Under the pieces are notes generated by a model. That model saw only the letters and a program-made list of their open reading frames with translations. It searched no databases and had not been told where the DNA came from. Made by a program: the position numbers and the translations under genes. From positions 1,349-65,348 of the forward strand of contig JAYUJP010000027.1 of assembly GCA_043765155.1 (NCBI GenBank): a stretch of 64,000 bases of DNA. The letters are read 5' to 3'. Origin of the DNA: a bacterium (GTDB taxonomy: Bacteria; Patescibacteriota; Minisyncoccia; Phycocordibacterales; UBA5272). The stretch's first letter is position 1. Every line of letters begins with the position of its first letter. Below are positions 11,947-56,897 of this stretch, piece by piece.

Positions 11947-12777
11947 ATGAAGCCTATTATCTCAAGTATAATTTCCATCTCACTTTTGACTGGCTTTGTC
12001 TCTGCATTTTTTTCATATAGGGCGTCAGCTATATTTTTCTTATTTATTATCCTTATTAGCATTATTTCTATAATTATTTTTAGAAAGTCTATAAAAGAAA
12101 ATCAAAACAAGAATTTGTATTATCTTATATTTATCTCTATTTTGGCTATTATAATCTTGGCCATGCTTGCAAATATAAAAGCAGACAAAGAAAAAATGTT
12201 AGCGCAGCAAAATTCTCAAGACATAAGTCAGAATACAAATAATAACCAAAATCTAAATCCAAATGTAAACTTAAATATTAGTAGCCAAGATCTAAATGTA
12301 AATAGTAGCAATATAGAAAGTATATTAGTAGCAGATAAAAGCAGGGTAGATATAGATATTTTTATGCGTATACTTAAAAGTAAAATAGATAATAGATCTG
12401 GCAGTGACAAAAATAATAATGAACAAGATATACTCGAATATTTTTTATTAGTAGAAAAGTTAGCAGCCGAAAAAGTTAATGCTCAAAATCCGATAACATA
12501 TATAGATATGGGTAAAATTTATGAGGCAGCTTATGCTGCTGAGCTAACCCAAAATACAAATCTGGCTATTTCTAATTACAAAGAATATATAAAGCTAAAA
12601 CCAAAAGACTCTATGGGATATGCGACTATGGCCAAGTTTTTGGCGCTAGACACAAGCTTTAAATCTTTTAGCAAAAAGGAGGTTACAAACTATGCCCAAA
12701 AAGCTTATGATTTGGCCAGATCTCAAGCAGAAAAAGATGAATACAAAAACTTACTCTCATATATAAAGAGTTTATAG
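11947..12777 (+). CDS. Membrane protein with three N-terminal TM segments and an N/Q-rich linker
   Basis: Hydrophobic N-terminus. No clear domain. Confidence 0.4.
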   Translation: MKPIISSIISISLLTGFVSAFFSYRASAIFFLFIILISIISIIIFRKSIKENQNKNLYYLIFISILAIIILAMLANIKADKEKMLAQQNSQDISQNTNNNQNLNPNVNLNISSQDLNVNSSNIESILVADKSRVDIDIFMRILKSKIDNRSGSDKNNNEQDILEYFLLVEKLAAEKVNAQNPITYIDMGKIYEAAYAAELTQNTNLAISNYKEYIKLKPKDSMGYATMAKFLALDTSFKSFSKKEVTNYAQKAYDLARSQAEKDEYKNLLSYIKSL

Positions 12778-31949: not shown

Positions 31950-33005
31950 ATGTTAAAACCAGTATTTAGCCTAAATACAGAGCTGTTAGATAATATAGTA
32001 AAGATTAAAAATATTGTAAGTGAGTTAAATAATCAAAAGTTTTCAGGCTTGGTATTGTTAGACTTGGAAAAAAATAGTTATGCGCTATCCGCTTTTGCCT
32101 CTACTAGTATAGAAGGAAACCCCCTACCCTTAACAGACGTAAAAAGACTTTTAAAACAAAAGCCAGAAAAAATTAGAGATACAGAAAGAGAGGTGCTAAA
32201 TTATAATAAGGCTCTTGAATTTTTAAATACTGAAACATCCAGAGACCTAAAGGTAAAAGTAAATACAGATAAAAGCAAAAAATTAGAATCAAAAATAAAT
32301 AATGATTTTATTTGCAAGATACAGTCTATTGTAATAGAGGGGCTATTAGATAAAAGTAATATTGGGAAATTTAGGAAAAATCCTGTCATAGTCAACGACC
32401 CTAAAAAAAGAAAAGTAGCATATATACCGGCAGATGCAAAAGACGTAGAAAGACTAATGAGTGAGCTCACGAATTTTATACATTCAGAAGCCAAAAATGT
32501 CGACCCTTTAATTTTGGCTGGGATTTTCCATAAGCAATTTGTTATAATTCATCCGTTTATGGATGGTAACGGTAGGACAACTAGACTGGTGACAAAGTAT
32601 TTATTGGCTAGTATGGGACTAGACACTTTTAAGCTTTTTAGTTTTGAGAATTACTATAATAAAAATGTGACTAATTATTTTTCAAAAGTAGGTGTGCTGG
32701 GTGATTATTATGAGATAAAAGATAAAATTGATTTTACTGACTGGCTAGTTTATTTTACAGGAGGTATTATTGATGAGCTTCTAAGAGTTCAGAAAATACT
32801 TGAGAGCACTAATATAAAAAGAACAGAACCTTATGAGCAGATAATTCTTGATTTTATTAAAAAGAACAAATCTATCTCTAAAAGTGAATATGAAAAAATT
32901 ACAGACAGAAAAAGATCTACCCAAATTTTAGATTTTAAAAGATTGGTAGATAAAGGTATGATAAAAAGAGAAAATAAAGGCAAGGCCACTTATTATACTA
33001 TCTAA
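31950..33005 (+). CDS. Fic family protein (class II, N-terminal inhibitory helix) with a C-terminal winged HTH
   Basis: Fic motif HPFMDGNGRTTRL. Inhibitory motif (S/T)xxxE(G/N) = STSIEGN upstream of the core. C-terminal wHTH. Confidence 0.8.
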   Translation: MLKPVFSLNTELLDNIVKIKNIVSELNNQKFSGLVLLDLEKNSYALSAFASTSIEGNPLPLTDVKRLLKQKPEKIRDTEREVLNYNKALEFLNTETSRDLKVKVNTDKSKKLESKINNDFICKIQSIVIEGLLDKSNIGKFRKNPVIVNDPKKRKVAYIPADAKDVERLMSELTNFIHSEAKNVDPLILAGIFHKQFVIIHPFMDGNGRTTRLVTKYLLASMGLDTFKLFSFENYYNKNVTNYFSKVGVLGDYYEIKDKIDFTDWLVYFTGGIIDELLRVQKILESTNIKRTEPYEQIILDFIKKNKSISKSEYEKITDRKRSTQILDFKRLVDKGMIKRENKGKATYYTI

Positions 33006-42476: not shown

Positions 42477-43724
42477 TTATTTTAATAAGCTAGTATACTC
42501 ACCATAAGCCCCCTTCTCCATATCAGTTAAAGGTATAAATTTCATCGCAGCTCCGTTCATACAATATCTTTTGCCTCCTCTATCACTTGGTCCATCTTCA
42601 AATACATGACCTAGATGTGAGTCGGCTATCTTACTTCTAACCTCTGTTCTGGTTGAGAATATTCCATCATCAACGTGAAATGTCACAGCGTATTCAGATA
42701 TAGGCTTTACAAAGCTTGGCCAGCCTGTGCCGCTATTATATTTATCTTTTGATAAAAATAGTGGCTCACCAGAAACTATGTCTACGTATAGGCCCACCTC
42801 TTTGTTATCATTATAATTACCATTTGAAAATGGTTTTTCGGTACCACTATCTTGAGTTACTTTTAGGCTAATAGCGCTCAAAGTTTTTAATTTTTCATTT
42901 TTAATTTGCGGAGCAAAATTCTCCCAGCTTTTTACATTTTTGTTTTCGTTCAAATTGCTTGATACATTCTCGACTCTATTTACTTTTGTAGTAGATCCAT
43001 CTTGCCAGTGTAATTTGATAAAGTCATTACGCCCCGAGCCGTCACGATACAGCTCATATCTGACTGGATTCTTATCCTTATAATCTTGATGATACTCCTC
43101 GGCAGGATAAAAATTATTATAGGGTAATATTTCGGTTACTATTTTTTTAGTTAAAAATTTTGGATTATTATCTATATAATCTTGCGTTTCTAGTTTTGAT
43201 TTTTCTATTGCCAGCTTTTGCTCATCATTTGTATAGTATATAGCAGTAGTATATTGATAACCCTGATCTGCAAATTGCCCATACGCATCGGTCGGGTCTA
43301 TATGACGCCAGTATTTTGCAAGTAGATTATTAAGAGTGGTACTAGCACTATTATAATATACAAGTACCGCCTCACGCGCCCTCACATCACCACTACCAAC
43401 TTCAGCGTAGCTTGGATTTTCTTTTGCGCTATCAGCATATCCAGATATAGCAGTTACTACGCCTTCAAGATGATTAAATTCTGACTCGGTGCACCAGAAA
43501 CACCCACCAGCAAAAACTATTTTGCTATAATTTTTCTCTAATTCTTCTTGTGTTAAGTTTTCTTTGTTCATACTTTTGTTTTGTTTAAGATTTATAGCTT
43601 GCTCTAGTGTTAGATTTTTGGATGTATATTTTTGATATATTATAGTTGATAAATAGATGGCTATTACTAGTATTATACTATATATTATTGGAGTTGGTAT
43701 TTTTAGATTTAAGATTTTTTGCAT
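42477..43724 (-). CDS. msrAB: Membrane-anchored bifunctional peptide-methionine (S)/(R)-sulfoxide reductase MsrA-MsrB
   Basis: N-terminal TM anchor. MsrA GCFWCTE. MsrB HLGHVFEDGP...RYCMN. Confidence 0.85.
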   Translation of the reverse strand: MQKILNLKIPTPIIYSIILVIAIYLSTIIYQKYTSKNLTLEQAINLKQNKSMNKENLTQEELEKNYSKIVFAGGCFWCTESEFNHLEGVVTAISGYADSAKENPSYAEVGSGDVRAREAVLVYYNSASTTLNNLLAKYWRHIDPTDAYGQFADQGYQYTTAIYYTNDEQKLAIEKSKLETQDYIDNNPKFLTKKIVTEILPYNNFYPAEEYHQDYKDKNPVRYELYRDGSGRNDFIKLHWQDGSTTKVNRVENVSSNLNENKNVKSWENFAPQIKNEKLKTLSAISLKVTQDSGTEKPFSNGNYNDNKEVGLYVDIVSGEPLFLSKDKYNSGTGWPSFVKPISEYAVTFHVDDGIFSTRTEVRSKIADSHLGHVFEDGPSDRGGKRYCMNGAAMKFIPLTDMEKGAYGEYTSLLK

Positions 43725-52256: not shown

Positions 52257-52739
52257 TTAACTTTTATTTAAAATGTCTTTTATCCATAATTCTACCTTAT
52301 CCATGACGTTAGATATATCAGAAGGACTAGATTCAGCTATGTAAATAGTCATGTTGGCGGTTTCTCTAAATAGATTAATTTTGGTGTATATATCAACAGC
52401 ATTTTTAGTCTCATATGATTGGTATATCGCTAAAAGTGTTATAAATATCTGCGCCCCAGTTCTTTTATTTCCGTTACTAAGAAAATGAGACTTTACTATT
52501 GTGTATAAAATAAACGATAGCTTGTTGGCTACCTCTTTATATAAATATTTATCAGAACACACAGTAACAGATCTTTGAAGCACACCAGTTAGATCACCCA
52601 ACTCTTTTTCATTTAATAAGTCCAGAGGTTCCTCGTCTTTGTAGTTTTCAACCAAATTTTTATTTATAGTTTTTATAAAAAATTCTAAATCAAACTCCTC
52701 TACAAATAAAGTAAGATTATCTTTTCTTATCATATTCAA
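52257..52739 (-). CDS. Doc (death-on-curing)/Fic-family toxin-like protein. No convincing Phd antitoxin.
   Basis: HFLSNGNKRTG matches the Doc motif HxFx(D/N)GNKR. Confidence 0.55.
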   Translation of the reverse strand: MNMIRKDNLTLFVEEFDLEFFIKTINKNLVENYKDEEPLDLLNEKELGDLTGVLQRSVTVCSDKYLYKEVANKLSFILYTIVKSHFLSNGNKRTGAQIFITLLAIYQSYETKNAVDIYTKINLFRETANMTIYIAESSPSDISNVMDKVELWIKDILNKS

Positions 52740-52970: not shown

Positions 52971-53372
52971 ATGGCAGACAATACAGAAGAAATCAAAACA
53001 GTAGAGACAAAAGCAAAAACAGTAAAGGCTAAAGTTGTAGTAGAAAAAGCTGAAGAAAAGCTTACTGATTATAGCGTTATCAAAACTGGAGGCAAGCAAT
53101 ATGTAGCAACAAAAGGCATCAAGCTAAGAATAGAGAAGCTAATAGGTGAGCACAAAGAGGGAGATACTATTTCATTTGACGAGGTATTACTTACTTGTGT
53201 TGGCGGCAAATACACAATAGGTGCGCCATTTGTAGCAGGAGCCAAAGTATCTGCAAAGATCATAGATATTACTCGTGATCCAAAGCTTATAGTACTCAGA
53301 TACAGAGCTAAGAGTAGATATCACAAAAAGAATGGTCACAAGCAACCAAAGTTTATAGTTGAGATATTATAA
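52971..53372 (+). CDS. rplU: 50S ribosomal protein L21 with an N-terminal extension
   Basis: YSVIKTGGKQYVATKG...VGGKY...KIIDITRDPKLIVLRYRAKSRYHKK. Confidence 0.8.
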   Translation: MADNTEEIKTVETKAKTVKAKVVVEKAEEKLTDYSVIKTGGKQYVATKGIKLRIEKLIGEHKEGDTISFDEVLLTCVGGKYTIGAPFVAGAKVSAKIIDITRDPKLIVLRYRAKSRYHKKNGHKQPKFIVEIL

Positions 53373-53382
53373 TAAAAATCTA

Positions 53383-53412
53383 AAAGTGCGCACCGCAGGT
53401 GCGCACTTTTAA
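53383..53412 (+). terminator. Rho-independent terminator after rplU
   Basis: AAAAGTGCGCAC-CGCAG-GTGCGCACTTTTAATTT. Confidence 0.75.
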
Positions 53413-53553
53413 TTTGTCATTATTTATGATATAATCATGCTTAAGATAAAGTATAGATATAGCTTAAAACCCTAAAAAGTTGAGCTATGTTGAAAATCCG
53501 TTCTGTGCTGATTAGGTAGGAATAGGAAATGGACCCGACTTTATTTTCTTTAA

Positions 53554-53590
53554 GCCCAGGTGGTGCCAAGTTCAGTAGAGGTAGACACGC
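53554..53590 (+). pseudogene. Degenerate 5' fragment of tRNA-Leu (duplicate of the first about 28-37 nt of the downstream tRNA-Leu)
   Basis: TTTAAGCCCAGGTGGTG and GGTAGACACGC shared with 53631..53660. No T-arm or acceptor 3' half follows. Confidence 0.5.
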
Positions 53591-53633
53591 TTTGTGTTAA
53601 CTAAAACTTTATTAGCAGCATTTGGCAATTTAA

Positions 53634-53718
53634 GCCCAGGTGGTGAAATTGGTAGACACGCTTGCCTTAGGAGCATGTGGAGCAATCCGTGAAGGTTCAA
53701 GTCCTTTCCTGGGCACCA
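53634..53718 (+). tRNA. tRNA-Leu (anticodon TAG), CCA encoded
   Basis: GCCCAGG acceptor. D-arm GTG-AAATTGGTAGA-CAC. Anticodon loop CTTAGGA. Long variable arm. T-arm GAAGG-TTCAAGT-CCTTT. There is one T:T mismatch in the anticodon stem. Confidence 0.7.
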
Positions 53719-53775
53719 AGTCGCGACAGTACGAGGTTCGTCAAAATACCTAATATTACATTAAATTAAAAAATT

Positions 53776-54111
53776 ATGACACCAGATTATATAGATTACG
53801 AAGAAATGTTAGAAATTGATGATTCAAGTGATTTTATTAATTTATTGACTGAGAGAACGTCAACCTTTGGAAAATTATTTGATCTGCTAGATGAAATGAT
53901 TTCTTGGGAAGAAATAAACACTACTATCTCAATTTCTGACTCTGAAGATGGATCAGGAGCAATGATAAAAAGACTGTTTTCAGATAAAACAAAAGCTTTT
54001 GAAATATTATCTTTCATGAAAAAACTCGATAAGATTACTGGATCAAGTACTTTACAAGAAGCAATAATTGCTAAAACTGCAATGGATAGAGTTTACCTTG
54101 GTAAAATTTAA
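53776..54111 (+). CDS. Small acidic hypothetical protein, sole cargo of the tRNA-Leu-flanked segment
   Basis: ORF track. pI strongly acidic. No recognisable domain. Confidence 0.35.
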   Translation: MTPDYIDYEEMLEIDDSSDFINLLTERTSTFGKLFDLLDEMISWEEINTTISISDSEDGSGAMIKRLFSDKTKAFEILSFMKKLDKITGSSTLQEAIIAKTAMDRVYLGKI

Positions 54112-54359
54112 TCAAATAAATCAGAGATGTATTAAAATCTTTGTATATTGTAATTAGATAAAAATATGATGGATACTTTACTTAATAGTGAGTTTTTATG
54201 GTTCTGTTACGATGTGGGGAACATAAAAAAATATAACCCATACGCGAAGAGCGTGTGGGTTTTATTTTTCTGACCAAGAAAGGATCTTGAATACGGGGTC
54301 GAGGAGCAATGTTTTATTGGAGTGCGATAGCACGAACAAGAAAATATGTGCGAGGTGAC

Positions 54360-54378
54360 CAAGTCCTTTCCTGGGCAC
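54360..54378 (+). repeat. Direct repeat of the tRNA-Leu 3' end (CAAGTCCTTTCCTGGGCAC), attR-like
   Basis: 19/19 identity with 53696..53714. No 5' half of a tRNA upstream of it. Confidence 0.6.
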
Positions 54379-54460
54379 ATCAAAATAATGAACGCGATAC
54401 GATAAGTATCGCGTGATTTATTTCTGGCGATACTTTAAACATCATATTATATGATATAAT

Positions 54461-54883
54461 GTGGTTATGAAAATAAAGGTAGAAACAAACATAAATGTAG
54501 CTGTAGAAAAAGCTTGGGAGCACTGGAGCTCACCAGAAAGCATCAAAGGCTGGGCATTTGCAAGTGATGATTGGGAATGTCCTTATGCAGAGAACGACTT
54601 GAGGGTTGGGGGTAGATTTTTAACTAGAATGTCAGCGAAAGATAAATCTATGAGTTTTGACTTTACCGGGATTTATCTCGAAATAGAAGAATACAAATAT
54701 ATCAAATATATTTGTGACGGCGACGATAAAAGGTTAGTTCAAATTACCTTTGAAAAAATAAGCGAAGATGAGACTAAAGTTGTTGAAGAATTTGACCCTG
54801 AAAATATAAACCCAAGTGAGATGCAAAAAGCTGGTTGGCAATCTATTCTAGATAATTTTAAAAAGTGCGTAGAAAATAATTAA
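54461..54883 (+). CDS. SRPBCC (AHSA1/activator-of-Hsp90-ATPase-like) domain protein. The annotated GTG start may be replaced by the ATG at 54467 (possibly leaderless).
   Basis: WEHWSSPESIKGW...RVGGRF...F.G.YLEIEE, AHSA1-like. TGATATAAT -10 ends at 54460. Confidence 0.5.
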   Translation: MVMKIKVETNINVAVEKAWEHWSSPESIKGWAFASDDWECPYAENDLRVGGRFLTRMSAKDKSMSFDFTGIYLEIEEYKYIKYICDGDDKRLVQITFEKISEDETKVVEEFDPENINPSEMQKAGWQSILDNFKKCVENN

Positions 54884-54905
54884 AAATACCAAAATAAACA
54901 ATAAT

Positions 54906-55118
54906 ATGAAAACCTTAAAATGTGACATGTGTGACTTTGTAGAAAAAGGAGACACTTTTGAAAATTGGATGAGTAATCTGAAATCTCATTATGGAGAAAA
55001 ACATATGGATTTTATGATGCAAAAGTCTAACCTAACAGACGAAGAAAAAATGGCAGGTATGCAAAAATGGATGTCAGACAACAGAGCGAGATTTGAATCT
55101 GAACCAGGTAAGAATTAA
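54906..55118 (+). CDS. Small DUF1059-like C-x2-C/His protein
   Basis: MKTLKCDMCDF...HYGEKH pattern. Confidence 0.35.
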   Translation: MKTLKCDMCDFVEKGDTFENWMSNLKSHYGEKHMDFMMQKSNLTDEEKMAGMQKWMSDNRARFESEPGKN

Positions 55119-55128
55119 AGCATAAGAT

Positions 55129-55716
55129 ATGACAATCTTTTACAAGTCACCGATAGGACATTTAAAAATAGAGTTAGAGGAAAACATAAAACAAGAACTC
55201 AAAATAATTTCTTGTATTTTTGTTGATGAAAAAAATGAAAACAAAAACATAGAAGAAGAATTAAAATTAGAAAAACAGAACGATAAAAAAGAATTAGCTA
55301 AAAATATAAGTTTAGAAAAACAAAAAGAAATTTTTGCAGAATTAGATAATTACTTTTTACACAAAAAAGATTTTTCAAAAAAATTTTTAAAAAAGTACAT
55401 CAACATGAGTGAACTATTAAATGCAGACGGTAAAAAAGCGACAGATTTTCAAAAAGATATTTGGGGCGTTATAAATAAAGTTAAAATAGGTCAGGTCATA
55501 AACTATACAGAAATGTCTGAAAGGGCGGGTAGGCCGCACGCTACGCGTGCGGCTGGTAGCGCTTGCGGTCAGAACCCTCTCGCCCTACTTATACCATGTC
55601 ACAGAGTGCTACGTAAAGATGGTGAGATTAATTATAAAGATAGGGGTTATAGCTGGGGACCAGAGAGGAAAACCTGGCTACTAGAACACGAAGGTCACGT
55701 GTTTAAGAAGCTTTAA
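55129..55716 (+). CDS. ogt: Methylated-DNA-protein-cysteine methyltransferase with a K/E-rich N-terminal extension
   Basis: Active site LIPCHRVL (PCHRV). HTH-like ...TEMSERAGRPHATRAAGSACGQNP. Confidence 0.8.
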   Translation: MTIFYKSPIGHLKIELEENIKQELKIISCIFVDEKNENKNIEEELKLEKQNDKKELAKNISLEKQKEIFAELDNYFLHKKDFSKKFLKKYINMSELLNADGKKATDFQKDIWGVINKVKIGQVINYTEMSERAGRPHATRAAGSACGQNPLALLIPCHRVLRKDGEINYKDRGYSWGPERKTWLLEHEGHVFKKL

Positions 55717-55743: not shown

Positions 55744-56463
55744 ATGTCAGAAGAATCAAGAATCAAGAATCAAGATTTTAATAATCTAAATCATAAGCTT
55801 AATGATGCTAATTTCCTTTTAGAATATAAAAGTAAATATGATAACTATCAAGTGTCGCTAGTACCCAAAATATTAGGAGGATTTTTAGTCTGGAGCGGCA
55901 ATATATTTTACGGCGCTGCGCCGTCATATTTAAAGTTTAGAGCGATAGAGGTGATAGCGCGCGTACCTTATCAGTCTTGGGTCTCGGGCGCATATACGTT
56001 ACTCACATTATTTTATACTGATGAGAAAAAGGCGATAGACCTAGCTGACGCAAAATTATTTGCTAGGCATGCTAATGATAATGAGACAATGCATGTCGTT
56101 GTCATATCACATATTGTGAACGTAGAGCATAAAAATATAAATATATTTACTCACAGCATAATACCGATAATATTCTCTTTCTTTTACTTTTGGGTCTCAT
56201 ATCTATTATTTTTGATAAATAGAAAGTGGAGCTATGAGCTCAATTATCTTTTTGAAGATCATTCGTATCATCAGTATAATACCTTTATAAATAGATATGA
56301 GGAAAAGCTAAAAGCCAAAGAGGTATGCAGTGAATTTCTCAATTGGTATGGTCGGGGATGCAGTAACCAGTACGAATTCTTCTTATCGGTCCGTAATGAT
56401 GAGCTTATACATAGAAATTACAGTATCGAGGAATTAGAAAAATTTGAGAGAAATAATAAATAA
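55744..56463 (+). CDS. Alternative-oxidase-like membrane-bound di-iron carboxylate protein
   Basis: All four AOX iron-ligand motifs are present in order: IEVIARVP (cf. LETVAGVP), NDNETMHVV (NERMHL), LFEDHSYHQY (LEEEAIHSY), RNDELIHRN (RADEAHHRD). Hydrophobic membrane-binding segment between motifs 2 and 3. Confidence 0.55.
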   Translation: MSEESRIKNQDFNNLNHKLNDANFLLEYKSKYDNYQVSLVPKILGGFLVWSGNIFYGAAPSYLKFRAIEVIARVPYQSWVSGAYTLLTLFYTDEKKAIDLADAKLFARHANDNETMHVVVISHIVNVEHKNINIFTHSIIPIIFSFFYFWVSYLLFLINRKWSYELNYLFEDHSYHQYNTFINRYEEKLKAKEVCSEFLNWYGRGCSNQYEFFLSVRNDELIHRNYSIEELEKFERNNK

Positions 56464-56469
56464 AAAGAA

Positions 56470-56508
56470 AACCCGCCAAAACGAATTTTCTTCGTTGGCG
56501 GGTTTATT
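56470..56508. terminator. Bidirectional rho-independent terminator (AOX-like gene and island lipoprotein)
   Basis: AAAACCCGCCAA...TTGGCGGGTTTATTT. Confidence 0.7.
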
Positions 56509-56734
56509 TGCTACAGGTAGCAATTTGACCGTCGTTCCGGTACCTTACGCTTGCTCCTCCATTTGGGAACATAAGGTAAGCTATGCCGTCTATACAAATC
56601 GGTTTTGTCATAGGAACAATTTTCTGCTTTTCTGCTTCGTTGCTTACAACGGGAACGCTTTTTTGTCCTAATAAGTCGCAACCAGCGAGTGCGATAAACG
56701 TTACAAATACAGCGGTAATTTTAATAACTTTCAT
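56504..56734 (-). CDS. Small lipoprotein on the second GC-rich (foreign-looking) island
   Basis: AGGAGG SD 6 nt before ATG. Lipobox LAGC. Local GC about 45-50%. No close family recognised by eye. Confidence 0.5.
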   Translation of the reverse strand: MKVIKITAVFVTFIALAGCDLLGQKSVPVVSNEAEKQKIVPMTKPICIDGIAYLMFPNGGASVRYRNDGQIATCSK

Positions 56735-56897
56735 TTTGGCCTCCTTAGCCTGAATCTGGATTGACGAATATCAATCTCTGTGTTTTATTATATCAGATAT
56801 AAATAATTTTGTCAATAGCTATAAAGTCTTTTGTTTTCTTGACTTTGAGTACTACTTTTGCTATAAATAATAGTAAGAAAAATACTAATTTAAAAAT

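What the first reader, a model, noticed from the sequence alone, without database searches (positions are those of the whole stretch)
53554..54378. tRNA-Leu(TAG) locus with duplicated tRNA fragments: a 5' pseudo-copy upstream and a 3'-end direct repeat 640 bp downstream (att-like scars)
The intact tRNA-Leu (53634-53718) is preceded by a decayed copy of its first about 30-37 nt (53554-53590). Its last 19 nt (CAAGTCCTTTCCTGGGCAC) are repeated at 54360-54378 with no tRNA 5' half upstream of the repeat.

By established knowledge, integrative elements targeting tRNA 3' ends regenerate the tRNA and leave such a direct repeat (attL/attR). The enclosed segment holds only a 111-aa acidic ORF and two terminators. 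So this is probably a remnant of a decayed integrative element, or a miniature element.

The adjacent block (SRPBCC protein, DUF1059-like protein, ogt, AOX-like gene, foreign lipoprotein) may be residual cargo.
Basis: partly seen in the sequence, partly recalled or inferred. Interest (0 to 1): 0.55.

Follow-up and report, generated by a model that had tools for sequence, protein, structure and literature searches.

The report
Layered insertion scars at tRNA-Leu gene
In this tiny-genome (Patescibacteria) bacterium, the tRNA-Leu(TAG) gene is a recombination hot spot: an exact 19-base copy of its 3' end marks a roughly 0.65-kb inserted segment with no integrase, an ordinary kind of scar except that the tRNA-derived hairpin pieces on both sides are unusually well conserved.

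Summary
tRNA-Leu(TAG) lies at 53634-53718. The exact 19-mer CAAGTCCTTTCCTGGGCAC occurs only at 53698-53716 and 54360-54378. A 5' pseudo-copy lies at 53549-53592.

Comparison with relatives supports an insertion between the tRNA and its old 3' end:
- The downstream 19-mer plus its terminator (54360-54423) is collinear with "tRNA 3' end + terminator" in L019 and L034.
- One sister species has strains with (L019) and without (L024) a 71-bp insert bounded by the same 19-mer.
- No integrase was found in this window or in any relative's island. It therefore resembles a decayed, integrase-less att-flanked islet (CIME-like) in a hypervariable slot between tRNA-Leu and a conserved AOX-like/GrpE anchor.

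- The AOX-like gene is conserved synteny, not cargo.
- The 111-aa ORF is not an orphan. Homologues sit directly after tRNA-Leu(TAG) in two other lineages.
- The tRNA fragments are not freely decaying. The 5' piece is a plus-strand-specific hairpin. The 3' piece is one arm of an imperfect palindrome of about 108 nt whose other arm is an inverted copy of the core. Its arms are 100% identical in a sister species, where third-codon identity is about 55-62%.

Verdict: a new member of a known kind, of moderate interest.

The parts
53427..53435 (+). Extended -10 promoter (TGATATAAT) of the tRNA-Leu transcription unit.
   Evidence: Read directly from the sequence. The TGnTAtAaT box aligns in all five relatives (alignment A1).
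53549..53565 (+). Upstream copy of the 17-nt direct repeat TTTAAGCCCAGGTGGTG. It comprises 5 nt of flank plus tRNA positions 1-12. The second copy is at 53629-53645.
   Evidence: (repeat D15).
53554..53628 (+). P5 unit. It consists of a 5' pseudo-copy of the tRNA (positions 1-12 and 18-30, with the D-loop replaced; 53554-53592) followed by a degenerate inverted complement. Together they form a plus-strand-specific hairpin in the pre-tRNA leader.
   Evidence: - The alignment to the tRNA is significant.
- It is conserved at 61/72 with L034.
- RNAalifold predicts 25 pairs, with 5 one-sided GU<->GC changes and none broken.
- Plus-strand z-scores are -2.1 and -4.0, against -0.9 and -0.5 on the minus strand.
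- It is absent from L019, L024, L025, L001 and L029.
53634..53718 (+). Intact tRNA-Leu(TAG) with encoded CCA.
   Evidence: Through position 83 the sequence is identical in L001, L019, L024, L025, L029 and L034.
53698..53716 (+). Core copy c1 (attL-like), running from T-loop C56 to C74.
53717..53737 (+). Left junction of the inserted segment (CAAGTCGCGACAGTACGAGGT). It is shared with relative L029 directly after that relative's tRNA.
   Evidence: window 53630-53737 matches L029 6504-6611 at 97% over 108 nt.
53776..54111 (+). The 111-aa acidic, all-helical ORF. It belongs to a small family that recurs immediately downstream of tRNA-Leu(TAG). It has no promoter of its own and is presumably co-transcribed with the tRNA.
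   Evidence: -.
- Homologues P0112 (62% identity) and P0113 (71%) were found.
- Their loci L039/L040 and L044 are shown.
- AlphaFold2 gives mean pLDDT 70.8 with six helices.
- There are no Pfam, PHROGs or PDB-fold matches.
54200..54222 (+). c0, a possible strongly decayed older copy of the tRNA 3' end (13/23 identical), directly in front of terminator term2. It is weak on its own.
   Evidence: The inference is positional. Contig L043 reads tRNA core | ATCAAAAAATAAAACCCATACG, which matches 54223-54244 uniquely with 2 mismatches. The copy is not significant by alignment score alone.
54235..54261 (+). term2, an intrinsic terminator hairpin followed by a T-tract. It ends the ORF111 unit.
   Evidence: (11 pairs, 6 of them GC, then TTATTTTT).
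54271..54291 (-). c_inv, an inverted degenerate copy of the tRNA 3' end (TTCAAGaTCCTTTCtTGGtCA on the minus strand). It forms the 5' arm of palindrome H.
   Evidence: 0 of 300 shuffles reach its score. One search shows an 88% match over 25 nt to the L025 tRNA end plus flank, in inverted orientation.
54270..54378 (.). H module, an imperfect palindrome of about 108 nt: c_inv, then a conserved internal stem (GGUCG/UGACC), then a variable apex, then core c2.
   Evidence: - Fold energies are -36.3 kcal/mol with z -2.9 on the plus strand and z -3.4 on the minus strand.
- L034 gives the same fold.
- The arms are 36/36 and 31/31 identical to L034, with an apex indel of 23 nt.
- L019 carries a deletion derivative.
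- The module is single-copy.
54360..54378 (+). Core copy c2 (attR-like). This is the displaced tRNA 3' end, and no tRNA body lies upstream of it.
   Evidence: no tRNA-like hit there at E<=10.
54379..54430 (+). T module, a bidirectional terminator hairpin (54392-54414) with flanking A and T tracts. In L019 and L034 this module directly follows the intact tRNA.
   Evidence: - Window 54360-54423 matches L019 2809-2872 at 90.6% over 64 nt.
- Alignment A4.
- All 9 pairs are kept and 2 are compensatory.
- The terminator scan detects it.
54461..55716 (+). Lineage-specific block (SRPBCC/AHSA1-like, a 70-aa ORF, and Ogt). It fills the rest of the hypervariable slot between tRNA-Leu and the AOX-like gene.
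   Evidence: Pfam results. Relatives carry different content in the same slot.
55744..56463 (+). AOX-like gene. Together with GrpE and DnaK it forms the conserved right-hand anchor of the slot, and it is not cargo.

Best explanation
The 3' end of the tRNA-Leu(TAG) gene is a recombination core (19 bp, from T-loop C56 to C74). DNA has repeatedly been inserted and lost at this core in this Patescibacteria clade.

In the window, a Campbell-type (attP x attB-like) insertion placed about 643 bp between the tRNA body and its former 3' end. The inserted DNA comprises the left junction, the ORF111 gene, terminator term2 and the palindrome arm Hs. The incoming DNA supplied a new 3' end with CCA, giving attL at 53698-53716. 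The old 3' end, still attached to its native terminator T, was displaced to 54360-54430 and became attR.

The segment carries no recombinase. It is therefore a decayed or non-autonomous element (CIME-like) that could move only with an enzyme supplied in trans, or by recombination between the repeats.

The SRPBCC-to-ogt block is further lineage-specific filling of the same hypervariable slot, which ends at the conserved AOX-like/GrpE anchor.

The 5' pseudo-copy is a separate, older rearrangement on the other side of the gene, analogous to D-loop/5'-side attachment sites. It has been retained as a leader hairpin.

What is shown: the repeats, the collinearity with relatives, the indel polymorphism, the absence of an integrase from the ORFs tested, and the conservation of the modules. 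What is inferred: the recombination mechanism and the order of events.
For: 1. The exact 19-mer occurs twice only.
2. The c2+T region of the window (54360-54423) is 90.6% identical over 64 nt to the intact tRNA end plus T in L019, and aligns likewise with L034. 'tRNA|T' is therefore the unoccupied configuration.
3. L019-L023 and L024 share an identical L21 protein, and L019 and L024 have 99.5% identical RmuC. L019 and L020 (scanned) carry T plus a second core copy with one mismatch that continues into CCA and the L024 flank, while L024 has the bare site. The difference is a 71-bp indel bounded by the core.
4. L034 carries tRNA-T-Hs-core, and L019 looks like the same structure with Hs deleted between two GACCAAG repeats.
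5. The repeat begins in the T-loop and runs to the 3' end. This is the classical T-loop sublocation of tRNA-targeting integrases, and the length falls in the usual range of 15-221 bp, mode 20-25 (bioRxiv 10.1101/2020.11.02.365908, read). The regenerated gene plus displaced fragment is the standard mark of an island (abstract of PMC4383910).
6. The interval between the tRNA and the AOX-like gene holds unrelated content of about 1 to 6.5 kb in every relative sampled.
7. ORF111 homologues sit directly after tRNA-Leu(TAG) in two more distant lineages but are missing from the closer relatives. This patchy, target-linked distribution is shown.
8. L029 shares the first 21 nt of the insert directly after its tRNA.
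9. Contig L043 is 100% identical to the window for 1596 nt up to the last base of the core and then switches to a term2-like flank.
Against: - No integrase, excisionase or phage/plasmid gene was found in the insert, in the ORFs downstream to 64 kb, in 20 further window ORFs, or in the islands of L001, L019, L025 and L034.
- Viral contigs have no match to the core, the left junction, the tRNA body or Hs.
- The inserts are tiny (71 bp, about 134 bp and 643 bp), far below any autonomous element.
- The ORF111 / tRNA-Leu adjacency in L039 and L044 shows no second core copy in the sequence held (scanned for L039/L040; L044 is a short contig read by eye). ORF111 could therefore be ancestral next to the tRNA, which would reverse the polarity of the event.
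- The order T-Hs-core in L034 against Hs-core-T in the window needs at least two events, or unequal crossing-over.
- Perfect conservation of the H arms and the strand-specific P5 hairpin are not explained by 'scar' alone.
- L043 may be a chimeric short-read contig, because the tRNA is identical among co-occurring relatives.
Confidence: 0.55

Rival explanations
1. There is no mobile element. The tRNA-end fragments arose by local replication errors: snap-back or template-switch inverted duplications at the terminator and tRNA hairpins, and slippage or unequal crossing-over between the resulting short repeats. The different layouts in relatives are then deletion or duplication derivatives of one ancestral palindromic locus, with ORF111 being an ancestral neighbour of the tRNA.
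For: - Both fragments are arms of palindromes. P5 consists of the 5' fragment plus its inverted complement. In the H region, c_inv plus its A-rich flank mirrors 'tRNA end + terminator A-tract'.
- L019 looks like L034 with a deletion between two GACCAAG repeats.
- The flank just upstream of P5 equals the flank upstream of the tRNA within each genome, but differs between genomes: 5 nt in the window and 18 nt in L034. This fits tandem duplication or gene conversion.
- ORF111 follows tRNA-Leu(TAG) without a second core copy in L039 (scanned) and in L044 (short contig, read by eye).
- No recombinase was found anywhere.
Against: - It does not explain why c2 carries the native terminator T of the relatives on its right-hand side.
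- It does not explain why c' in L019 continues exactly into the CCA and flank of the empty L024 site.
- It does not explain the patchy distribution of ORF111, which is absent from the five closest lineages.
- It does not explain the 100% identity of the H arms between species whose silent sites are near saturation.
Confidence: 0.22
2. P5 and H are functional cis-acting RNA elements of the tRNA-Leu transcription unit. They are hairpins that each sequester a sequence complementary to one end of the tRNA (an 'anti' arm) with a decoy copy of that end. This would influence precursor folding, processing or stability. On this view the 19-nt repeat is maintained by selection and is not a recombination footprint.
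For: - Non-coding modules are far better conserved than silent sites between the window and L034: P5 61/72, T 43/51, H arms 67/67, against 54-62% at third codon positions.
- The P5 hairpin is specific to the sense strand, and all five substitutions in paired columns keep the pair.
- The layout is symmetric: decoy-anti-tRNA-...-anti-decoy.
Against: - In both genomes H lies immediately downstream of a strong intrinsic terminator and has no promoter of its own.
- H folds equally well on both strands.
- H is deleted in L019 and absent from L024, L029, L025 and L001. P5 is absent from all but two lineages.
- No Rfam family matches.
- With two sequences there is no true covariation, since no pair changes on both sides.
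Confidence: 0.13
3. Assembly artefact: the duplicated tRNA pieces result from mis-joining reads of several co-occurring relatives that share an identical tRNA.
For: Many short contigs of this clade break at or in the tRNA: L017, L030, L031 and L043, and L035-L038 end within about 170 nt after L21. The tRNA is identical among relatives.
Against: The full arrangement, from P5 through T, is reproduced base for base in five further contigs (L012-L016) from five different sample or run accessions, from ENA scaffold-type and k141-type assemblies and from Logan. These include a 124-kb scaffold. L034 independently carries P5 and H.
Confidence: 0.02

Closest known systems
tRNA-targeted genomic islands / integrative elements of tyrosine integrases with a T-loop sublocation, as catalogued by Islander
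   Same: - An intact, regenerated tRNA gene plus a displaced 3' fragment in direct orientation.
- The identity block starts in the T-loop and runs to the 3' end, and is 19 bp long.
- An empty-site configuration is seen in relatives.
- The variable cargo slot is anchored by conserved genes.
   Different: - No integrase or any mobility gene.
- The insert is only about 0.65 kb (71-134 bp in relatives), whereas the smallest integrase-bearing islands are about 3.5 kb (bioRxiv 10.1101/2020.11.02.365908).
- The element-side arm next to attR is a palindrome containing an inverted copy of the core.
CIMEs (cis-mobilizable elements) and tandem accretion at att sites (Streptococcus ICESt1/ICESt3 system; review PMC5704250)
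   Same: [quoted passage not shown]
- An internal att-like junction (Hs-core-T), as expected from successive insertions at the same site.
- Strain-level presence/absence.
   Different: - No parent ICE or IME is known for this clade.
- Conjugation is not documented in Patescibacteria here.
- Mobility is untested.
- The sizes are one to two orders of magnitude smaller.
5'-side (D-loop sublocation) integration upstream of tRNA genes, as described for the arg2 islands of Klebsiella (bioRxiv 10.1101/2020.11.02.365908)
   Same: A duplicated 5' acceptor-strand/D-stem fragment lies upstream of the intact gene, and exact identity ends at the D-loop.
   Different: - Only about 40 nt separate the fragment from the gene.
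- The upstream flank is duplicated as well.
- The unit forms a conserved, sense-strand hairpin.
MITE-like or palindromic repeat elements (REP, Correia, PATE types)
   Same: Small, non-coding, hairpin-forming modules with presence/absence polymorphism.
   Different: - Single copy in 64 kb and in all loci fetched.
- No terminal inverted repeats at the ends of the 53717-54359 segment.
- A 19-bp repeat identical to a tRNA end rather than a short fixed target duplication.

Membership tests
tRNA-targeted integrative genomic island (Islander criteria) | Intact target tRNA gene plus a displaced fragment of its 3' end in direct orientation, bounding the island. | tested here: met
   tRNA at 53634-53718. 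The exact 19-mer is at 53698-53716 and 54360-54378, with no tRNA body upstream of the second copy.
tRNA-targeted integrative genomic island (Islander criteria) | The identity block starts at a recognised sublocation (anticodon loop, T-loop or 3' end). | tested here: met
   The block starts at C56 of the T-loop (TTCAAGT) and ends at C74. This is read from the cmscan alignment and compared with the classes described in bioRxiv 10.1101/2020.11.02.365908.
tRNA-targeted integrative genomic island (Islander criteria) | An integrase gene inside the island, usually next to one end. | tested here: not met
   The only ORF of at least 100 aa in 53719-54359 is the 111-aa protein, which has no Pfam or PHROGs match. 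The ORFs from 54.4 to 64 kb, by Pfam match or by reading the translations, are AHSA1-like, Ogt, AOX-like, GrpE, DnaK, ClpB and TsaD, plus small ORFs with no match. Twenty further window ORFs include no recombinase.
tRNA-targeted integrative genomic island (Islander criteria) | An unoccupied site in related genomes. | tested here: met
   tRNA|T is contiguous in L019 and L034 and collinear with the window's c2|T. L024 against L019 shows the empty and occupied states for the T module.
CIME (cis-mobilizable element) | Retains attL and attR but lacks integration and transfer genes. | tested here: met
   Both core copies are exact, and there are no mobility genes.
CIME (cis-mobilizable element) | Derived by decay from an ICE or IME, and mobilisable in cis after accretion with an incoming element. 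| not testable with these tools
   No parent element was found in viral contigs or in the loci fetched. Mobility requires experiments or read-level data.
MITE / transposon | Terminal inverted repeats, a fixed-length target-site duplication and multiple genomic copies. | tested here: not met
   Self-comparison finds no inverted repeats at the two ends of the insert. Hs, X, P5 and T are single-copy in the window and in the loci. The flank duplications differ in length between genomes: 17 nt against about 30 nt for P5.
Known structured RNA families (Rfam 15), including tRNA-like elements and tmRNA | A covariance-model match for the P5 or H region. | tested here: not met
   In 53300-54500, only the genuine tRNA reaches its family's gathering score. 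ARAGORN finds no tmRNA.

The most novel reading that the evidence does not exclude
The tRNA-Leu(TAG) gene of this Patescibacteria clade may be served by a previously undescribed family of miniature, recombinase-less insertion modules. Each module is a terminator hairpin plus a palindrome of about 90-110 nt, whose arms are an inverted and a direct copy of the 19-bp tRNA core, sometimes carrying the small ORF111 gene. The modules would be moved in trans by a host or helper recombinase. The palindrome (H) and the mirror-image leader hairpin (P5) would be the functional recognition or folding elements, which would explain their perfect conservation between species. A related reading is that P5 and H are 'decoy/anti-tRNA' RNA hairpins that modulate maturation of this one tRNA.
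Probability: 0.15. Interest if true: 0.6.

Novelty: new member of a known kind. Interest (0 to 1): 0.35.

Why it matters
Patescibacteria (CPR) have tiny genomes, and little is known about how they acquire genes. This locus shows a tRNA gene acting as a hot spot for gene turnover without any visible integrase. Closely related populations carry empty, minimal and layered occupancy states.

If the conserved palindrome and leader hairpin prove to be functional recombination or RNA elements, they would define a minimal att-type module. They would also identify a small conserved protein (the ORF111 family) that is tied to tRNA-Leu(TAG).

If they do not, the locus is an ordinary decayed islet. Its main use would then be as a marker of strain variation, and as a warning that metagenome contigs of this clade break at this tRNA and may be chimeric across it.

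Tried and rejected
- **Known RNA in 53.3-54.5 kb.** Rfam at E<=10 gave only the tRNA. A sub-threshold trpB-motif hit (29 bits against a gathering score of 59) is just terminator term2.
- **tmRNA or split tRNA.** ARAGORN finds none. The acceptor stem lacks G3:U70 (read from the sequence).
- **Extension of the 5' pseudo-copy into the anticodon and variable arm** (TTAGCAGCATTTGGCAA against TTAGGAGCATGTGGAGCAA), and a matching GGAGCAA in H. This would make P5 plus H the halves of an old, split tRNA gene. By my own hand scoring the second piece reaches about 17 under the scoring scheme, against a shuffle mean of 14.9 (sd 2.1), and it is weaker in L034. Not claimed.
- **A small ORF in H.** The reading frames differ between the window and L034 because of a 1-nt indel. 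Rejected (read from the sequences).
- **Integron attC.** There is no GTTRRRY/RYYYAAC motif in H (read from the sequence), and no IntI was seen among the ORFs tested.
- **Phage or plasmid origin.** Four viral-contig scans (core, left junction, tRNA body, Hs) found nothing. PHROGs gave nothing for ORF111.
- **Function of ORF111.** The AlphaFold2 model (pLDDT 70.8) has no PDB fold match with E<=0.001.
- **Metagenome scan with the tRNA 5' 58-mer.** It returned a single 1.2-kb contig. Three context look-ups (P0008, P0013, P0011) returned contigs that end before the tRNA.
- **Remnant core copies at the right edge of the variable slot, in front of the AOX-like gene.** None in the window, L019, L025 or L001.
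- **An invertible segment between c1 and c_inv.** The L043 tail matches the forward orientation (CCCATACG) rather than the inverted one. Not supported.
Full report
**1. What is there**

The window comes from a Patescibacteria (CPR) genome. The closest public records are metagenome-assembled genomes labelled Patescibacteria or Parcubacteria.

- ARAGORN and Rfam place tRNA-Leu(TAG) at 53634-53718, with the CCA encoded.
- The 19-mer CAAGTCCTTTCCTGGGCAC is found only at 53698-53716 and 54360-54378, even with three mismatches allowed, and none is expected by chance.
- The 5' pseudo-copy is also real. An exact 17-mer (5 nt of flank plus tRNA positions 1-12) lies at 53549 and 53629. tRNA positions 1-30 align to 53554-53592, with the D-loop replaced; the score is 31 against a shuffle maximum of 25.
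It is an inverted, degenerate copy of the tRNA 3' end at 54271-54291, and none of 300 shuffles reach its score.
- The arrangement is reproduced base for base in five further contigs, including a 124-kb scaffold. It is not an assembly artefact.
- No other tRNA in the window has fragment copies.

**2. Relatives**

Using L21 and its homologues, I fetched the same locus from several related populations. RmuC identity gives the best ordering:

| Locus | RmuC identity to the window |
|---|---|
| L034 | 94% |
| L029 | 93.5% |
| L019 / L024 | 88% |
| L001 | 74% |
| L025 | 68% |

- L001, L019-L029 and L034 keep RmuC-L21-tRNA-Leu(TAG), with an identical tRNA in those compared.
- Those long enough to show it (L001, L019, L025) end the interval with AOX-like, GrpE and DnaK.
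- Between the tRNA and the AOX-like gene, the content is unrelated in each lineage:
  - about 1 kb with two small ORFs in L025;
  - about 5 kb in L001;
  - about 6.5 kb in L019, with a two-component system, MsrAB and others;
  - DUF2461, glyoxalase and OmdA in L034;
  - ORF111, SRPBCC, a 70-aa ORF and Ogt in the window.
- The interval is therefore a hypervariable slot, and the AOX-like gene is its conserved right-hand anchor, not cargo.

**3. The key comparisons**

I use these module names:

| Name | Module |
|---|---|
| c | the 19-bp core |
| T | the terminator module at 54379-54430 |
| Hs | the sequence 54270-54359 |
| X | the sequence 53717-54269 |
| P5 | the 5' pseudo-unit |

The layouts are as follows.

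| Locus | Layout |
|---|---|
| Window | P5-tRNA(c1)-X-Hs-c2-T-SRPBCC... |
| L034 | P5-tRNA(c)-T-Hs-c-DUF2461... |
| L019-L023 | tRNA(c)-T-c'(one mismatch)-CCA-ATTTATC... |
| L024 (same L21 protein as L019, RmuC 99.5%) | tRNA(c)-CCA-ATTTATC..., with neither T nor c' |
| L029 | tRNA(c) followed by the first 21 nt of X |

- The window's c2+T (54360-54423) is 90.6% identical over 64 nt to the intact tRNA end plus T of L019 (alignment A4).
- The downstream 19-mer therefore sits exactly where the real 3' end of the tRNA sits in the nearest relatives. Everything between c1 and c2 is extra.
- In the L019/L024 pair, one species has both the occupied and the empty state of a 71-bp insert bounded by the same core. 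The displaced copy c' continues into the CCA and the flank of the empty site.
- L019 looks like L034 with Hs removed between two GACCAAG repeats.
- This is the signature described for islands in tRNA genes: a regenerated target plus a displaced fragment (abstract of PMC4383910).
- The identity block starts in the T-loop, which is one of the classical integrase sublocations. Its length is typical; direct repeats of 15-221 bp with a mode of 20-25 are reported in bioRxiv 10.1101/2020.11.02.365908.

**4. What is missing**

- There is no integrase, excisionase, or phage or plasmid gene in the insert, in the ORFs downstream to 64 kb, in twenty further window ORFs, or in any relative's island.
- Viral contigs have no match to the core, the left junction, the tRNA body or Hs.
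- The inserts are tiny.
- The window's internal junction Hs-c2-T is what accretion, or unequal crossing-over between core copies, would produce from an L034-like c-T-Hs-c unit. I cannot order the events.

**5. ORF111 is not an orphan**

- The word-based search found only the protein itself.
- A full HMMER scan of 1.84 billion representative proteins found two homologues, at 62% and 71% identity.
- Both lie directly downstream of a tRNA-Leu(TAG) gene, 17 nt away in L039/L040 and 42 nt away in L044.
- Those lineages have tRNA-Leu sequences that differ from the window's. Their neighbours also differ: tRNA-Lys and RbfA in one, and DUF192 in the other.
- No second core copy was found there. L039 and L040 were scanned; L044 is a short contig that I read by eye.
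- The closer relatives L034, L019, L025, L001 and L002 lack the gene.
- Two readings follow. Either ORF111 travels with DNA that targets this tRNA, or it is an ancient neighbour lost several times and re-acquired here by recombination through the tRNA.
- The protein is predicted to be all-helical (pLDDT 70.8). It has no Pfam, PHROGs or PDB-fold relative.
- It has no promoter of its own, and no terminator separates it from the tRNA. I infer that it is co-transcribed with the tRNA.

**6. The fragments are not freely decaying**

- Between the window and L034, third codon positions of RmuC and L21 are only 54-62% identical. Against that, P5 is 61/72 identical, T is 43/51, and the two arms of H are 36/36 and 31/31. 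Only the apex of H varies, with a 23-nt indel.
- T is a genuine hairpin. All nine pairs are kept in three lineages, and two changes are compensatory. The terminator scan also detects it, together with term2.
- H is an imperfect palindrome of about 108 nt in which c_inv pairs with c2. It gives the same fold in L034 and folds equally well on both strands. In both genomes it lies immediately after an intrinsic terminator. This favours a DNA-level role, or recent spread, over an RNA role.
- P5 is different. It is a long hairpin only on the sense strand, with z-scores of -2.1 and -4.0 against -0.9 and -0.5 on the minus strand. All five substitutions in paired columns preserve pairing as GU<->GC changes. 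It therefore looks like a retained leader hairpin of the pre-tRNA.
- With only two sequences, this is suggestive and not proof.
- 5'-side (D-loop) attachment sites with islands upstream of a tRNA gene are known. They are the nearest analogue for the origin of P5.
- However, within each genome the flank upstream of P5 equals the flank upstream of the tRNA, while these flanks differ between genomes. That points to duplication or gene conversion.

**7. A possible allele, with a caveat**

- Contig L043 is 100% identical to the window for 1596 nt, up to the last base of c1. It then reads ATCAAAAAATAAAACCCATACG.
- That tail matches only 54223-54244, the start of term2, with two mismatches.
- This suggests a 'tRNA-term2' arrangement without ORF111 in the same sample.
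- It also makes 54200-54222 a candidate for a much-decayed older core copy (13/23 identical, not significant alone).
- Because the tRNA is identical in co-occurring relatives, and many contigs break there, L043 may be chimeric. I use it only as supporting evidence.

**8. Verdict**

- The att-scar reading is supported in its essentials, with about 0.55 confidence in a Campbell-type insertion at the T-loop-to-3'-end core, now lacking a recombinase.
- The main rivals are purely local palindrome-driven rearrangement (0.22) and functional RNA hairpins (0.13).
- The locus is a new member of a known kind. The unusually well-conserved hairpin modules derived from both tRNA ends, and the recurrent tRNA-Leu(TAG)-ORF111 pairing, remain unexplained and are worth a targeted follow-up.

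Noticed in passing
window 56464-56897 (76-aa ORF at 56504-56734, minus strand): A small lipoprotein-like gene (phrog_7772, E 6.9e-9) sits in a 434-bp spacer between the AOX-like gene and GrpE. In L019, L025 and L001 these two genes are about 20 bp apart, so this is a separate small lineage-specific insertion on the opposite strand.
   Followed up: partly
L039 6479-6896, L040 358-775, L044 1-421: Homologues of the 111-aa ORF lie 17-42 nt downstream of tRNA-Leu(TAG) genes of different sequence in two other Patescibacteria lineages. The L044 copy appears frameshifted. L039 and L040 differ from each other only upstream of the tRNA, so the 5' flank is variable there too.
   Followed up: partly
L017, L030, L031, L043 (ends of contigs); L035-L038 end shortly after L21: Short-read contigs of this clade repeatedly stop at or inside the tRNA-Leu gene (L017, L030, L031, L043) or within about 170 nt after L21 (L035-L038). 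The tRNA is identical among co-occurring relatives. Contigs spanning it can therefore be chimeric, and strain variation right after the tRNA is hard to assemble.
   Followed up: partly
window 53427-53435 and 54452-54460; aligned positions in L001, L019, L025, L029, L034: Transcription units here start with extended -10 boxes (TGnTATAAT) without a recognisable -35 element. The simple sigma-70 scan misses them.
   Followed up: no
L001 8530-8862 and 11049-11315 (minus strand); L001 about 12500-12760: The 5-kb island of L001 contains two paralogous small ORFs (shared motif AEILAWI.N...L.KNQLV.AWR) with no family match. Next to a VanW-domain gene there is a tandem duplication of about 100 bp.
   Followed up: no
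window 52257-52739 (minus strand) and 31950-33005: There are two Fic/DOC-family genes in the window. The one between RmuC and L021 is missing at that position in L019, L025 and L001. This is another small lineage-specific gene next to the tRNA-Leu locus.
   Followed up: no
window 42477-43724 (minus strand) and L019 7819-9006: A fused MsrA-MsrB gene lies elsewhere in the window, while L019 carries such a gene inside its tRNA-Leu island. I did not test whether these are orthologues that moved.
   Followed up: no
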